Assembly: GCA_951406725.2 (NCBI GenBank)
Contig: OX597837.1
Span: forward strand, 38,192,001-38,256,000
Reading direction: 5' to 3'
Source of the DNA: Octopus vulgaris
Taxonomy: Eukaryota
Length of the DNA: 64,000 nt
Program-made: the position numbers and the translations under genes
In this document: positions 13,126 through 53,760 of the stretch, piece by piece
Layout of the letters: the number at the start of each line of letters is the position of its first letter
Numbering within the stretch: position 1 is the stretch's first letter
The notes under the pieces: generated by a model
Databases searched by the model: none
What the model saw: the letters and a program-made list of their open reading frames with translations, nothing else
What the model was told of the DNA's origin: nothing

Positions 13126-13612
13126 ATGCATATCCATCAAAGTGACACTGGGGTAAAATATAGGAAGCCCAGTATACCCATCATCATTACCCGTCTGATA
13201 AGGGTGCACCAGGCACATGCATCACAACCATATGTGCACAACATGGTGATCCATATCAAGATAAACAGTGCATGATCTTGTAGTTTGGGTCCAGTTAGAA
13301 CTTTCTTCAGGTCATGTAGTCCTTCCTGTTCAAAAGATCCCTGAACAAAACAGCCATGTTTCTAGCGGTGAATCATTCAAACCCCAAAGAATTCCTCTCA
13401 ACACATGGCTATGATGCACATATCGTCAGCCACTAAGGGACATTGGTCAACTGGTTAAGGTCAAACAACTGACAAGCTAATCTGTGGTATTCAGCAGAAT
13501 ATTTGCTGTAGCCCATCTTTTATACAAAAACAAAGCAATGTACAGAATAACACTTCCAATCAAATAAGGTCAAAAGCCATGAGAGTCACTGGCTGGTACT
13601 GCATCAAGGCAT
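13126..13612 (-). mobile_element. Non-coding (AAT)n-associated element, near full length
   Basis: Homologous to plus-strand pieces at 15721-15840, 19574-19730 and 31869-31975; abuts (TTA)n. Confidence 0.85.
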
Positions 13613-13746
13613 TTATATTATTATTATTATTATTATTATTGTTCTTCTTCTTCTTCTTCTTCTTCTTCTTCTTCTTCTTCTTCTTCTTCTTCTTCTTCTT
13701 CTTCTTCTTCTTCTTCTTCTTCTTCTTCTTCTTCTTCTTCTTCTTC
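13613..13746. repeat. (TTA)n followed by (CTT)n
   Basis: Direct reading. Confidence 0.97.
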
Positions 13747-13898
13747 TTTTCTGTTTGACTTTTGCCTTATATTTGTACAAGTTGGCTCCAAGTCTCACCC
13801 AGACACCTCAAGAGACAACAGATTGGAAGTTTGTGATGTTGTTATGCCTAGTGTGCCATATATTTGGTTTTGTATTTAGTGTTGTACTAGTGAATGTC
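13747..13898 (-). mobile_element. 3'UTR-like fragment of a trinucleotide-tailed retroelement (inverted copy of 18835-18982)
   Basis: Shared gggtgagacttggagccaacttg...gcaaaagtcaaaca core, 3' end joined to an (AAG)n/(AAT)n tract. Confidence 0.75.
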
Positions 13899-14229
13899 TA
13901 AAAAAAAAAACGAAAATTGTTTGTTTTAAAACTTATTATTATTATTATTAATATTATTATTATTATTATTATTATTATTGTTGTTGTTGTTGTTTTGTTG
14001 GGTTGTTTTTGTTGTTATTATTATTATTATTATTATTATTATTATTATTATTATTATTATTGTTGTTGTTGTTGGGTTGTTTTTGTTATTATTATTATTA
14101 TTATTAGCAAGAGCAGCGTAGTTACTGTGACAATAAACTCATTGGGTGTACACCCGTGTCGTAGAACCAAGTAGTAGTAATCTCCCGTTCAGTAAAAGCT
14201 CATTCAGTCAGCCAGATCAGACAGAGTGA

Positions 14230-14490
14230 ACTTCCTCGCTGAATTTTCAGTAAATATGCTGGAGGGCACCACTTTTCTCTCTACTCTCACACCTTCCCTC
14301 TTCAAGTGGTACTTGAAAAATCGTGTCTAGAGCATCTCAACCTAGTCGTTAAACAAGGAAACAGCATGCTCTACATGAACAAGGGGAGCGGTGCAAGAAT
14401 CATAGAAAATGATTCAACAAATAGTTTGATGTTTTTCAGGCGATCTGGCGAGTTTGTTGATCCAAGCGTACCCACGGCTAATCCACTGTG
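14230..14490 (-). pseudogene. Old Tx1/L1-like ORF2 C-terminal remnant
   Basis: Minus strand reads FFKYHLKREGVRVERKVVPSSIFTE, resembling L1/Tx1 ORF2 C-termini; highly decayed. Confidence 0.4.
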
Positions 14491-14910
14491 GACGCAGGCA
14501 TGGCTGTGTGATAAGAAGTTTGCTTCATAACCACATGGTTCCGGGTTCAGTCCCACTGAGTGGTAGATTGGGCAAGTGTCTTCTACTATATATTTCTTTA
14601 CTCCCCACAAGGGGCTAAACATAGAGGGGACAAACAAGGACAGGCAAAGGGATTAAGTCGATTACATCGAGCCCAGTGCGAAACTGGTACTTTATTTATC
14701 GACCCCGAAAGGATGAAATGCAAAGTCGACCTCGGTGGAATTTGAACTCAGAACGTAACGGCAGACGAAACACCGCAAAGCATTTCACCCGGCGTGCTAA
14801 CGTTTTTGCCAGCTCGCCGCCTATAGTGTCTTCTACTATAGCCTCGGGCCGACCAAAGTCTTGTGAGTGAATCTAATAGAGGGAAAACTGAATGAAGCTC
14901 GTCGTATTTA
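14490..14910 (+). mobile_element. SINE family A head interrupted by a family B SINE
   Basis: Head 14490-14590 resumes at 14825-14910; 16-bp duplication agtgtcttctactata at 14575-14590 and 14825-14840. Confidence 0.9.
14591..14824 (-). mobile_element. Full-length SINE family B with 16-bp TSD
   Basis: Reverse complement ggcggcgagctggcaaaaacgttagcacgccggg...ccccttgtggggagtaaagaaa; TSD as above. Confidence 0.92.
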
Positions 14911-14959
14911 AAAACAATGATGATGATGATGACGATGGTGACGGACTCTCCCGTCGAAG

Positions 14960-15710
14960 ACGACGTATGAGCGTTCAACTCTGCGGCAACAGAAACGAAA
15001 CAATCTCACATATTGTGAGTGAGTGTAGCAAGTTCGCGCCAAATCCCTACAAAATGAGACACGATAATGTGGTTACGTTCATATATTGGAGGCTATGTGA
15101 AAAGTACGGCCTGAACAGAGCACGGAAATGGTACGAACATGAACCAGTAGAGGTCACCAAGAACAAGGAATATAAGATAATGTGTGATTTTACAATCCAA
15201 TGTGACTCCCTAATTGATGCTTGGAGACCAGATGTTGTTGTGGTAGATAAAGGGAAAAAAGGAAACCAAGATCATAGATATTGCAATACCTGGAGATGCA
15301 TGCATAAATGACAAAGAACTAGAAAAGACTGGAAAGTAGAGACTACTAAAAGACAGAATTGCAAGAATGTGGACCATGAGGAGAGTGTCTGTCATTCCAG
15401 GAGTTGTTGGGGTACTTGGAACATTAACAACCAAGTTTGAGAAATATGTCAGAGAAATGGGAATTGCCATGAGAGCAGAGCAAGCCCCCCAAAAACTGCT
15501 CTGCTGGGGACAGCTAGGGTTTTTAGATTAGTATTTGGATGTCTCCCATTATAATTGACAGGTGTATATCAAAGCTTATAATGTACGGAAAGAAACCCTG
15601 TGAGACCTCTGACAGCTGGCCGCTGGCCGCTCTCACAGAATCTACCAGAACAAACAAGACCGAACGTTCTGAGAAGTAAAACAACAACAACAACAACAAC
15701 AACAACAACA
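14960..15710 (+). mobile_element. 5'-truncated R4/Dong-like non-LTR retrotransposon (zinc knuckle + restriction-like endonuclease remnant, 3'UTR, (AAC)n tail)
   Basis: LCG..ETISHIVSEC...RHDNV...W.LC..YG...WYEHEP...RPDVVVVDK / IIDIAIPGD...KELEK...TALLGTARV; frameshift and stops. Confidence 0.9.
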
Positions 15711-15720
15711 ATAATATTAA

Positions 15721-50948: not shown

Positions 50949-52764
50949 CTTATATAGACACATATATACATTCATGCATACATACATGAAATACACACAT
51001 GCTTTCATATCTGCATACCTGCATGCATGTAAATACACATATACTCACACACATTCATATATCCATACATGCATTGTTACATAAGCACCTATTCATACAT
51101 AAACATACATTAAAAAGCCGGCTTTACTACATGATAGAATTTTCTTCCATTATTCTGCAGAAATCCATAGCTGATGAACAGACAGAAAGACCACATGTAA
51201 TATGAGCATAACATATATAGAAGGCATATATATATCAATGGCTGCGATGTCGTCTGCTGATTGTAAACCAAACACTGTGACGTTGGATATCATGTGACTG
51301 ATATGTATCTCTCTGCTGCGCTGTGCTCGTAGAGAACTCATTGCAGACACTAACACATACACATAGACACATACACCGAACAAGCACATACACATTATAT
51401 ATATATATATATATATATGTGTGTGTGTGTGTGGTTGTGTGTGTGGTTGTGTGTGTGGTTGTGTGTGTGTGTGTGAATGTGTATGTACGTATATATTTGT
51501 ACGTATATATATGTACGCATATATTATTACTATTAATAATAATAATGACAATACTAATATATATGGATATATATGCCTCTCGTATATATATATATATATA
51601 TATATATATATATATATATATATATATATAGATAGATATATATAGATATATAGATATATATAGATATATAGATATACATACATATATGTATGTATGTATC
51701 TATCTGTACCTATCTAACTATCTATCTATATCTATCTATCTAGCTATCTATCTATCTATCCGTCAATCTATATATCTACGCACACAGATACACACACACA
51801 CACACACGCACACACACACATGATATATGCATTGATATATATACGTATTATCTTGTGTTTACTTCTGGTGCACAAGTACTGACATTATTATGTACGTATG
51901 AATCTGTGTGTGCATATTTCGTATATATATATATATATATATATATATATATATATATATATATATATATATAAGAGAGAGAGAGAGAGAGAGAGAGAGA
52001 GAGACGCAAACACCTATTTATATATCAGTATGTATGCATATCTGTATCTATTGATCTGCTTCGCTGTTTGTGATTCACTCTCTCTCTCTCTCTCTCTCTC
52101 TCTCTCTCTCTTTCTCTCACTCTCTCACCGTTTCTCTCTCACTCTCTCATCCTATCCCTATATATACATATGTCTGTGTGTGTATAAATAAATATATGTA
52201 TGAATGTATAGACATGTGTATGTAGTATAGTATGATTTGTATACATACATATATATATATATATACATATCTGTTTATTAATATACTTATTCCTATACAC
52301 ACACACACACACACTCTCACACATACACACACACACACACACACACACACACACACACACACACACACATAAATATATACTTGTACACACATACACACAT
52401 ACATACAAACACATACCGACATATATATTTTATTCATGACAGAGAATGCAACATTCCCATCTAGCATCAGCGCCACCTACTGACAGATGCCAATCTCTTC
52501 ACATGTTTAGTGAAGTGATTGATTCGTATCGATTCACCGATTTTATTACACAATCAATACACAAGCAGTGCTACGCCCATCCTCTCCGCTCTCTCTCTCT
52601 CCCTCTCTCACTCTCTCTCTCTCTCTCTCTCTCCGCTCTCTCTCTCTCTCTCTCTCTCTTTGCTTGTCTGTCATCTTCGTTCCAAACACGCCTACTTACG
52701 TGTACAAATATTTATATACACTCACACACAGAAACATGTACACGTATGCATGTATATATAGTGA

Positions 52765-53093
52765 AGGCGCGTGGCTTAGTGGTTAGGGGCATTCACCTCA
52801 CATATCGTAAGGTCGTGAGTTCAATTCCCACCAACGCGTACTGTCCTTGAGCAAGACACTTTATTTCACGTTGCTCCACTCCGCTCAGCTGGCGAAAAGG
52901 AGTGGTACCTGTATTTCAAAGGGCCAGCCTTGTCACATTGTGTGTCATCACACTGAATCTCCCTGAGAACTACAGTAAGGGTTCTCGTGTCTGTGGAGTG
53001 CTCAGCCACTTGCACATTAATTTCACGAGCAGCAGGCTGTTCCGTAGATCAGATCAGCTGGGACACTCATCATCGTAACCGACGCAGTGCTCC
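52765..53093 (+). mobile_element. SINE family C
   Basis: ggcgcgtggcttagtggttaggg...gtccttgagcaagacactttatttcacgttgctcc...gggccagccttgtcaca. Confidence 0.88.
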
Positions 53094-53109
53094 TTTTTGG
53101 ATATATATA

Positions 53110-53230
53110 GAGTAGATAAAACAGGGGCAACTGAAGAAGGGGAATATATTCTTTGTGTTGCATGTCTCGTTTCTATGTTTTTGTTTTTATGTTTTCGTTT
53201 CTCATTGTGTTCAACGTTTTTTTGTACCCA
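53110..53230 (+). mobile_element. Short TA-bounded element with partial hammerhead-like core
   Basis: GCAA-CTGAAGA-aggggaatatattctttgtg-TTGC, lacking GAAA; T-rich 3' end like the other pLTR-like pieces. Confidence 0.4.
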
Positions 53231-53408
53231 TATATGCATGTATATATACATATATATGTAGGTATGTACATATATGTATGTATATATGCATATATTTATA
53301 TATATATATATATATATATATATATATATATATATATATATATATATGCATATATATGTGTGTGAGTGAGTGTGAGTGTGTGGAGATATATACGTTTTTG
53401 TGTGTGTC

Positions 53409-53532
53409 TGATTTTGTAACGAATTGTAAGACTAATAATGAGAAATGAGTTCTCAATACGTACGGTAGTTATTATTCGAATGATAAAAGGACGTAACTCG
53501 AAGCCAACTTTAAGCGTCACTCCTGTACGTAT
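53409..53532 (+). repeat. ~120-bp direct repeat, copy 2
   Basis: See 49283-49403. Confidence 0.92.
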
Positions 53533-53649
53533 ACACACACACACATACACACACACACACACACACACACACACACACACACACACACACACACACACAC
53601 ACACACACACACACACACACACACACACACACATACATACATACATACA

Positions 53650-53760
53650 AAAATGTCCTGTTGTTCATATTGATATTCCAGTGAAGGAGCCTTGGATCTT
53701 GGTTTGAAACCGGCTCTTTCTTTACTGGCAAGAAAGCTTGAAATAAAACTGAATAATGAC
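53650..53760 (+). mobile_element. Short element (probable LINE 3'UTR) flanked by (CATA)n on both sides
   Basis: catacatac-aaaaatgtcctg...gaaataaaactgaataatga-catacatacat; AATAAA near the 3' end. Confidence 0.55.

What the first reader, a model, noticed from the sequence alone, without database searches (positions are those of the whole stretch)
13126..53760. Microsatellite niche partitioning among retroelement groups
Seen: hammerhead elements mostly in (TA)n; R4/Dong-like RLE copies and their partner in (AAT)n; a second RLE family and a 3'UTR-like piece beside (CATA)n (40045, 50075, 53650); a putative LINE 3'UTR in (GATA)n (27538). Known: Dong elements target TAA repeats and some Tx1 families target simple repeats. 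Inference: a multi-family system in which each endonuclease uses, and extends, its own repeat motif, potentially explaining the extreme SSR density.
Basis: partly seen in the sequence, partly recalled or inferred. Interest (0 to 1): 0.72.

Follow-up and report, generated by a model that had tools for sequence, protein, structure and literature searches.

The report
Four retroelement lineages, four microsatellite targets
In this likely octopus genome, four kinds of jumping gene each sit inside their own short DNA repeat (TATC, AAT, CATA or TA), likely because each lineage's enzyme cuts that repeat; this is a known strategy with two apparently undescribed targets, and it accounts for only a minority of the genome's repeats.

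Summary
5' junctions, which a tail cannot explain, are family-specific and strand-specific:
- young intact Tx1-type LINE (27539): (TATC)n 39/41, GATA 0;
- Dong-like families: (AAT)n 27/50;
- their 520-bp companion: (AAT)n 16/30;
- second RLE lineage (40045, 50075, 53650): (CATA)n 15/58;
- Neptune-type Penelope hammerhead ends: (TA)n 23/51.
Of 146 repeat-flanked junctions, 120 carry the family's own motif (shuffled mean 34). SINE-like elements show no motif of their own; an RTE LINE makes 3' tails only.

The inference is half right. Targeting is well supported, but Dong-TAA and Neptune-TA are published lineage habits, and many families crowd one motif, so this is not partitioning evolved here. 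Only the Tx1 family has longer tracts than expected (236 vs 80 bases). Only 14% of microsatellite bases touch these families and 60% touch no recognised repeat, so they do not explain the density.

I found no paper on the TATC-targeting Tx1 or the CATA-targeting RLE. This scan noted the first, and Penelope-in-TA, on other pieces of this genome.

The parts
13126..13615 (-). Near-full copy of the ~520-bp non-coding AAT-targeted element (E), likely Dong-mobilised
   Evidence: 16/30 5' junctions AAT, 0 ATT
13757..13899 (-). Presumed 3'UTR of another Dong-like family (F), beside (AAG)n/(AAT)n
   Evidence: 84% like 18860-18974; no coding link tested
14976..15680 (+). Dong-like RLE 3' fragment, family G (CCHC, RHD, PD..D, 3'UTR), then (AAC)n
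   Evidence: 14/25 5' junctions AAT
15717..15843 (+). 3' piece of element E followed by (AAT)n
16143..16645 (+). Dong-like RLE 3' fragment (H) directly after (AAT)n
   Evidence: no genome-wide search for this family
16660..17415 (+). Dong-like RLE fragment, family I, interrupted by SINE A1 (16985-17213)
17467..17871 (-). Decayed Tx1-type ORF2 C-terminal fragment, 50% aa identity to the TATC-targeting LINE
17856..18530 (+). Dong-like RLE 3' fragment, family I, with 3'UTR and degenerate (AAT)n
   Evidence: 13/25 5' junctions AAT
18860..18978 (+). Presumed 3'UTR of family F followed by (AAT)50
19578..19732 (+). Internal piece of element E after (AAT)n
27539..27878 (-). 5'-truncated 3'UTR of a young Tx1-type LINE (K; full length 6,054 bp), inside (TATC)n
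   Evidence: 39/41 5' and 37/37 3' junctions TATC
29207..29405 (-). 3'UTR end of a Neptune-type Penelope-like element with a minimal hammerhead motif (core 29336-29293), in (TA)n
   Evidence: (related UTR follows an RT/GIY-YIG ORF in L355)
31869..31971 (+). 3' piece of element E with (AAT)n on both sides
32016..32234 (+). 3'UTR of Dong-like family I with (AAT)n on both sides
34100..34380 (-). Hammerhead-like element with inverted arms, not in (TA)n (the exception)
34934..35156 (-). Hammerhead-like Penelope-type end (HH1; core 35072-35030) in (TA)n
   Evidence: link to a Penelope ORF not shown for this family
40045..40298 (+). Second RLE lineage (J), endonuclease fragment after (CATA)4; 3' side interrupted by SINE B
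49584..49744 (+). Hammerhead-like element (HH3; core 49608-49655) in (TA)n
   Evidence: its junction counts were left out of the test because the query held TA-like flank
49768..49873 (-). Decayed hammerhead-like element (HH4) beside (TA)n
50075..50560 (+). Second RLE lineage (J), endonuclease fragment plus 3'UTR; CATA flanks decayed
53650..53757 (+). Terminal 3'UTR of lineage J
   Evidence: 18/29 3' ends CATA
53759..55663 (+). 1.9-kb mostly (CATA)n tract directly 3' of the J end; the window's largest SSR beside a targeting family

Best explanation
Four unrelated retroelement lineages in this genome each insert into one microsatellite motif in a fixed orientation (Tx1-type LINE in TATC, Dong-like LINEs and a short companion in AAT, a second RLE lineage in CATA, Neptune-type Penelope elements in TA), likely because each lineage's own protein nicks that repeat and primes reverse transcription there; the repeats are likely pre-existing safe landing sites rather than products of the elements. 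Shown: motif, strand and junction patterns; intact ORFs with APE, RLE or GIY-YIG domains. Inferred for the Tx1 family: the APE nicks the (GATA)n strand, priming occurs at a fixed phase on an RNA end that lacks poly(A), and the 5' end is joined through about one base of microhomology. Inferred overall: the preferences are inherited lineage traits, and most tracts arise by slippage or as SINE/RTE cargo.
For: 5' junction counts against nulls:
- Tx1 K 39/41 TATC, 0 GATA (genome rate 0.003), truncation points from 1 to 5968; 29/30 among copies not nested in another K tail.
- Dong G 14/25 and I 13/25 AAT (local 0.104; P 2.5e-8, 2.6e-7; strands 14:0, 13:1). Young Dong family: 6 of 7 junctions in view AAT, plus a full-length copy with AAT on both sides.
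- E 16/30 AAT (local 0.05).
- J 15/58 CATA, 0 TATG (local 0.04; P 7e-9).
- Neptune ends 5/20 TA in unselected stretches (genome 0.04; P 1e-3) and 18/31 in searched loci (local 0.072).
Own motif at 120 of 146 SSR-flanked junctions; shuffled mean 34, maximum 55 of 20,000; Cramer's V 0.87.
Controls: SINE A 18/89, B 17/78, D 8/23 heads touch any SSR (null 0.117), with mixed motifs. An RTE LINE has (ATG)n as a 3' tail in a 32-member cluster and no ATG in the 5' flanks shown.
K 3' junction phase fixed in 36/37; 5' microhomology 1.04 vs 0.31 bases (n=28).
Published precedents: Dong-TAA (PMC7998251, PMC3812793), Neptune/Naiad-TA (PMC8557442), Tx1 on TC, TTC, TTCC, TTTC (PMC4494074).
Against: No nicking assay, no empty-site allele and no target-site duplication could be seen. 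Old families have many 5' junctions with no recognisable SSR: G 10/25, I 11/25, J 35/58, Neptune 10/20 in unselected stretches. Decay and miscalled junctions explain some, but weak specificity is not excluded for J and Neptune. Searched loci are the best 30 matches of 900-9,000 candidates, not random draws. 11 of 41 K junctions are nested and some share truncation points, so they are not all independent. TA has no strand test and is the commonest SSR, so survival bias could contribute for Penelope ends. K tracts are three times longer than a pure 'pre-existing site' model predicts.
Confidence: 0.8

Rival explanations
1. Targeting plus growth: each insertion lengthens or duplicates its target repeat and leaves a new target for the next copy, and this feedback is a main cause of the genome's SSR load.
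For: Tracts around 18 solitary K copies total 236 perfect TATC bases against 80 expected from length-biased sampling (95% 54-113; n=57 background tracts), with 5' and 3' sides equal. 11 of 41 K copies sit in another K copy's tail. 37% of ACAT and 31% of AAT bases in unselected stretches touch these families. A 1.9-kb CATA tract follows the J end in the window.
Against: No excess for E (121 vs 88, P 0.16) or G (90 vs 88); the excess for I rests on one 1,484-base tract. Only 14% of all SSR bases touch targeting families and 60% touch nothing recognised. 72% of AGAT bases have no recognised neighbour. SSR not adjacent to elements does not track element number across stretches (rho 0.17, P 0.14). 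A preference for long, pure tracts gives the same K signal.
Confidence: 0.12
2. No enzymatic targeting: elements carry or make repeats as tails and internal cargo, and 5' repeats arise by microhomology, later slippage or better survival of insertions in repeat-rich DNA.
For: This does happen here. RTE (ATG)n tails and SINE B's internal TA/TG tract are among the largest SSR-flank clusters. J carries an internal CATA repeat, and 6 of 30 searched copies begin at it. Young Dong carries an internal (GAA)n. SINE heads are about twice enriched beside SSRs.
Against: It cannot give one motif on one strand at 5' junctions scattered over 6 kb of non-repetitive LINE sequence (K 39:0, G 14:0, I 13:1, J 15:0), nor the excess over flanks within 1 kb. 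J copies under 220 bp were left out of the count.
Confidence: 0.05
3. True niche partitioning: competition among families in this lineage drove them onto different motifs.
For: The four groups barely overlap: of 146 SSR-flanked junctions, 4 carry another group's motif, all TA/CATA swaps. TATC and CATA are targets I did not find in print for these lineages, so shifts happened somewhere.
Against: At least four Dong-like families plus E share AAT and pile into each other's tails (window 13-19.7 kb; L341, L343, L390), and several hammerhead families share TA. Dong-TAA is reported in insects, molluscs, cnidarians and an ostracod (PMC7998251), so it predates this genome. Abundant AC, ATC, ACC and AG have no targeting family among those I examined.
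Confidence: 0.03

Closest known systems
Dong (R4 clade) of Bombyx, Anopheles, Biomphalaria, Darwinula (PMC3812793, PMC7998251; passages read)
   Same: Single ORF with RT and C-terminal RLE; (TAA)n target; here a 1,227-aa open frame with AAT on both sides
   Different: Several families coexist with a 520-bp non-coding companion. The sister RLE lineage J (24% aa identity) uses (CATA)n instead.
Microsatellite-targeting Tx1 families: Kibi (TC)n, Koshi (TTC)n, crocodilian Tx1 on (TTCC)n/(TTTC)n (PMC4494074; passages read)
   Same: Two-ORF APE-RT LINE inserted into a simple repeat in fixed orientation
   Different: Target is (TATC)n, which is not pure pyrimidine; found in an invertebrate; many near-identical intact copies
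Neptune and Naiad Penelope-like elements with (TA)n bias and minimal hammerheads (PMC8557442, PMC4209133; passages read)
   Same: RT plus C-terminal GIY-YIG with a CX2-5CxxC linker; minimal hammerhead with palindromic helix III in the terminal repeat; (TA)n flanks
   Different: Nothing essential
Waldo (ACAY), Mino (AC), Togen (TG), some HERO families (PMC3812793, PMC4640811; passages read)
   Same: Targets close to J's (CATA)n; ACAY includes ACAT
   Different: Waldo is listed as APE-type; J has an RLE and Dong-like motifs, so the target was probably reached independently (inference)
TE-borne SSR expansion in penaeid shrimp (PMC7878876; passages read) and SaTar arrays in plants (PMC5907723; abstract read)
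   Same: SSR-rich DNA with TEs beside or carrying SSRs; unrelated elements lined up without interrupting each other
   Different: The shrimp passages explain SSR gain by cargo, not by targeting. SaTars are DNA transposons.

Membership tests
L1/Tx1-type LINE (element K) | ORF2 with N-terminal APE, RT and C-terminal zinc finger | tested here: met
   L213 1,149 aa: PF03372, PF00078, PF13966; best PDB match L1 ORF2p, E 2e-52
L1/Tx1-type LINE (element K) | Separate upstream ORF1 | tested here: met
   680-aa open frame; no Pfam hit
Tx1 clade (element K) | RT phylogeny groups with named Tx1 families rather than L1 proper | not tested
   No named Tx1 sequence came from the tools (one search hits unnamed). 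The Tx1 label rests on target specificity, the lack of poly(A) and recalled motifs.
Tx1 clade (element K) | Target specificity (over 20% of flanks, criterion in PMC4494074) | tested here: met
   39/41 5' and 37/37 3' junctions
R4/Dong (families G, H, I, young Dong) | Single ORF with RT, CCHC and PD..D RLE at the C-terminus, no APE | tested here: met
   L390 1,227 aa; aligns with R2 proteins over residues 457-1208; Pfam RVT_1, no APE
R4/Dong (families G, H, I, young Dong) | (TAA)n target | tested here: met
   G 14/25, I 13/25; young family 6/7; H seen only in the window
R4/Dong (families G, H, I, young Dong) | N-terminal Myb/SANT-like domain (PMC7998251) | tested here: inconclusive
   No Pfam hit to E=1; the paper needed profile-profile search. 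An 'RRKWT..E' stretch near residue 103 looks like it (by eye).
Dong proper (lineage J) | (TAA)n target and grouping with Dong | tested here: not met
   0/58 AAT, 15/58 CATA; separate branch with SH-aLRT 100 in a quick tree; 24% aa identity
R4 clade in the wide sense (lineage J) | RT phylogeny with named R4, HERO, NeSL and R2 references | tested here: inconclusive
   Homologous to Dong family I over thumb, CCHC and RLE (E 5e-29); 45 relatives, none with an informative name, most 32-46% identical; tree has no named outgroup; HERO not excluded
Neptune-type PLE (29207 family) | RT followed by CX2-5CxxC linker and C-terminal GIY-YIG | tested here: met
   L355 ORF; Pfam GIY-YIG E 0.0019, below the curated cut-off; its 3'UTR ends in a 75-90% relative of the window piece
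Neptune-type PLE (29207 family) | Minimal hammerhead in the terminal repeat | tested here: inconclusive
   Core CUGANGA, extra base, G-C stem II, GAAA, palindromic CG, UA by pattern, as described in PMC4209133; no Rfam hit; cleavage not testable
Non-autonomous Dong partner (element E) | Retroposed (fixed 3' end, 5' truncations) into the same target on the same strand | tested here: met
   21 of 66 alignments reaching the 3' end start inside the element; 16/30 5' and 22/28 3' AAT
Non-autonomous Dong partner (element E) | 3' end shared with an autonomous Dong | tested here: inconclusive
   No BLAST match to the G, H, I or F ends; a similar leader-plus-hairpin layout, but single folds are no better than shuffles

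The most novel reading that the evidence does not exclude
The TATC-targeting Tx1 LINE roughly triples the repeat tract it enters and each copy leaves a fresh target for the next, so retroelements farm their own microsatellites. The CATA and AAT lineages did the same earlier, shaping a third of those motifs' genomic load.
Probability: 0.2. Interest if true: 0.72.

Novelty: new variant of a known kind. Interest (0 to 1): 0.44.

Why it matters
One genome holds three endonuclease types (APE, RLE, GIY-YIG) aimed at four simple repeats. Intact young copies exist for the TATC-targeting Tx1 (1,149-aa ORF2) and for Dong (1,227 aa). How microsatellite targeting works is described as not well understood (PMC3812793), and the Penelope paper calls for an in vitro system (PMC8557442). 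These copies give ready substrates for a four-by-four nicking test and for asking whether insertion lengthens the repeat. In practice, octopus GATA, AAT and CATA markers may often border active or decayed retroelements. It does not explain why octopus DNA is so repeat-rich.

Tried and rejected
Rfam: a whole-window scan gave only SSR-driven miRNA noise below gathering scores in the rows shown; two focused scans gave no hammerhead.

ARAGORN found no tRNA gene in the window, so the tRNA-derived nature of SINEs A-D is recalled, not shown.

HH3 junction counts (22/30 TA) were rejected as biased because the query held TA-like flank. The first automated HH2 junction calls were replaced by reference-based calls. 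The 3' counts for K, G and I are slightly favoured by tail bases in the queries, so the test rests on 5' junctions.

The first SSR budget (16% targeted) was inflated by RTE sequence in the library and was redone (14%). The first tract-length test (371 vs 168) tolerated TA and TC runs and was redone strictly (236 vs 80). The first de novo flank clustering collapsed on low complexity and was redone.

The careful tree did not finish; the quick tree was used. The protein search with K ORF2 gave only unnamed close relatives.

A planned set of 20 young Dong copies could not be examined; the young-Dong count rests on 7 junctions plus one full-length copy.

SINE A1 as a GATA-targeted partner of K was rejected: its tail resembles K's 3' end, but 0 of 85 3' ends are TATC.

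
Full report
Setting. The window lies on contig C24 of a 2.80-Gb, 227-contig animal genome. Repeat content, size and earlier scan notes suggest an octopus; this is inference. Perfect SSRs make up 25.5% of the window and 7.4% of 59 evenly spaced 10-kb stretches, so the window is an SSR-rich outlier. In all I held 79 such unselected stretches (790 kb) and the best-matching loci of ten family searches.

Observation in the window. All four associations are present. Three qualifications apply: one hammerhead element (34100-34380) is not in TA; two Dong-like pieces lack AAT at the 5' side; and the CATA at 50075 is decayed.

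Identity of the GATA element. The piece at 27539-27878(-) is the 3'UTR of a 6,054-bp LINE whose copies are mostly 95-100% alike. It has a 680-aa ORF1 and a 1,149-aa ORF2 with APE, RT and zinc finger. It ends AATAAAGAAACA without poly(A).

Identity of the AAT elements. They are RLE elements of several families. A young family has many near-identical copies, and one full-length copy has a 1,227-aa frame that aligns with R2 proteins. Element E is a ~520-bp non-coding retroposed unit with a fixed 3' end. Its partnership with Dong is inferred from target and strand; no shared 3' sequence was found.

Identity of the CATA elements. The pieces at 40045, 50075 and 53650 belong to one older RLE lineage, J. 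It is 24% identical to the Dong-like family I, forms its own branch in a quick tree without named outgroup, and has relatives in other assemblies, none with an informative name.

Identity of the hammerhead elements. The piece at 29207 is the end of the 3'UTR of a Neptune-type Penelope element: L355 shows RT, a CxxC linker, GIY-YIG and a related UTR with TA on both sides. The other hammerhead families were not linked to an ORF.

Is it more than chance or tails? I located 5' junctions by alignment to other copies and classed the adjacent 16 bases by oriented motif. K: 39/41 TATC, 0 GATA, truncated anywhere from base 1 to 5968; 29/30 when nested copies are set aside. G: 14/25 AAT. I: 13/25 AAT. 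E: 16/30 AAT. J: 15/58 CATA. Neptune ends: 5/20 TA in unselected stretches and 18/31 in searched loci. Genome rates are 0.003, 0.0037, 0.0086 and 0.04; local rates within 1 kb are 0.04-0.10 (none computed for K); all P are 1e-3 or lower. Strand ratios are 39:0, 14:0, 13:1, 16:0 and 15:0. Rows dropped because the junction could not be validated, ran to a locus edge or was too short: G 5/30, I 5/30, J 19/77, Neptune 2/53; the HH3 family was dropped whole for query bias. Among 146 SSR-flanked junctions, 120 carry the group's own motif (shuffles: mean 34, maximum 55 of 20,000). Results that weaken this: 35/58 J and 21/50 Dong junctions show no SSR, and searched loci are best matches rather than random draws.

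Controls. SINE heads touch any SSR in 18/89, 17/78 and 8/23 cases (null 0.117), with mixed motifs, so co-location alone gives about two- to threefold, not 30- to 300-fold. An RTE LINE gives (ATG)n at its 3' end only.

Mechanism. Shown: fixed 3' phase in 36/37 K ends and 5' microhomology of 1.04 bases against 0.31 (n=28). Inferred from standard target-primed reverse transcription: the endonuclease nicks the strand complementary to the sense-strand motif (GATA for K, ATT for Dong, TATG for J), the 3'-OH primes on the RNA end, and the second strand joins within the same tract. Because the tail-side tract remains a target, copies stack: 11 of 41 K copies lie in another K tail, and Dong, E and SINE pieces line up in AAT at window 13-19.7 kb. 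Which domain reads the repeat was not tested; the literature points to the endonuclease for Tx1, an N-terminal Myb-like domain for Dong and the CxxC linker for Neptune.

Do they extend the repeats and explain the density? Tracts around 18 solitary K copies hold 236 perfect TATC bases against 80 expected (95% 54-113). E and G show no excess, and the excess for I rests on one tract. Growth and preference for long tracts cannot be told apart here. In the unselected stretches (898 tracts, 56,115 bases) 14% of SSR bases touch a targeting family, 19% a SINE-like or RTE element, 6% another repeat and 60% nothing recognised; in the window the figures are 24% and 68%, with one tract making up 1,809 of the 4,168 targeted bases. 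The library misses unknown and very old families and holds some false hits, so 14% is approximate. The shares for ACAT (37%) and AAT (31%) are higher. The stretch 21.5-27.3 kb is almost pure SSR with no such element visible.

Comparison with print. Passages read: PMC3812793 (list of Waldo, Mino, Kibi, Koshi, Dong targets; mechanism not well understood), PMC4494074 (Tx1 targets), PMC4640811 (Togen, HERO), PMC7998251 (Dong in TAA across insects, molluscs, cnidarians), PMC8557442 (TA bias of Naiad and Neptune), PMC4209133 (minimal hammerheads), PMC7878876 (shrimp), PMC9115989 (octopus RTE and Dong), bioRxiv 10.64898/2026.07.22.740005. PMC13282606: first third read plus term search; it lists active Dong-R4, L1-Tx1 and Penelope families in Octopus vulgaris, and the word 'target' does not occur in its main text. 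PMC5907723: abstract only. Kojima and Fujiwara 2004 was seen only as cited. Searches turned up no report of a TATC-targeting Tx1, a CATA-targeting RLE or motif partitioning in a cephalopod. Repbase, Dfam and the supplements of these papers were not seen and may record such targets.

Earlier notes of this scan describe the GATA-targeting Tx1, Penelope ends in TA and an R4-like element in TATG on other DNA. I had the K, Neptune and J results before reading them; they are not independent support.

Verdict. Real, well-supported motif-specific targeting by four lineages. Two targets are textbook and two appear undescribed. It is not an evolved partition and not the main cause of the SSR load. New variant of a known kind; interest 0.44.

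Noticed in passing
window 16985-17213, 14591-14825, 63323-63558 vs 27539-27582: The abundant SINE A1 ends in a tail that aligns with the 3' end of the TATC-targeting Tx1, yet 0 of 85 of its 3' ends are in TATC; it is likely moved by a non-targeting relative.
   Followed up: partly
L070:1-723 and 31 other flanks in unselected stretches: An RTE-type LINE with (ATG)n as a 3' tail only; a source of ATC/ATG repeats without targeting.
   Followed up: partly
L390:4179-4199; L380-L389: The young Dong family carries an internal (GAA)n poly-Glu tract of variable length inside its ORF.
   Followed up: no
L390:5220-5800: A Dong N-terminal fragment runs directly into the 3' end of element E with no AAT between; a possible template switch or a hint at E's autonomous parent.
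   Followed up: no
L300, L313, L174 (5' junctions): Short tandem duplications of the element's first 15-17 bases at the 5' junction of E and Dong family I.
   Followed up: no
L034:8717, L042:99, L047:2368, L049:8212: A hammerhead-like arm and a tRNA-like arm face each other across an internal (AAT/AAC)n tract; a hammerhead family whose SSR is cargo, not flank.
   Followed up: no
window 17420-17871: A decayed Tx1 ORF2 fragment on the minus strand abuts a plus-strand SINE A1/Tx1-type tail, inside a Dong cluster.
   Followed up: no
window 47290-47700: A GC-richer tandem array of about 19-bp units inside a non-SSR island, unlike the surrounding repeats.
   Followed up: no
window 49283-49401 and 53409-53530: Two 92%-identical 120-bp pieces beside TG/CA repeats, with no hit in the 59 unselected stretches; a local duplication or a rare family.
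   Followed up: no
K copies L014 (twice), L026 at 4964; L003, L015 at 4841: Repeated 5' truncation points; a truncated sub-lineage or a microhomology hotspot (ATCT at 4841).
   Followed up: no
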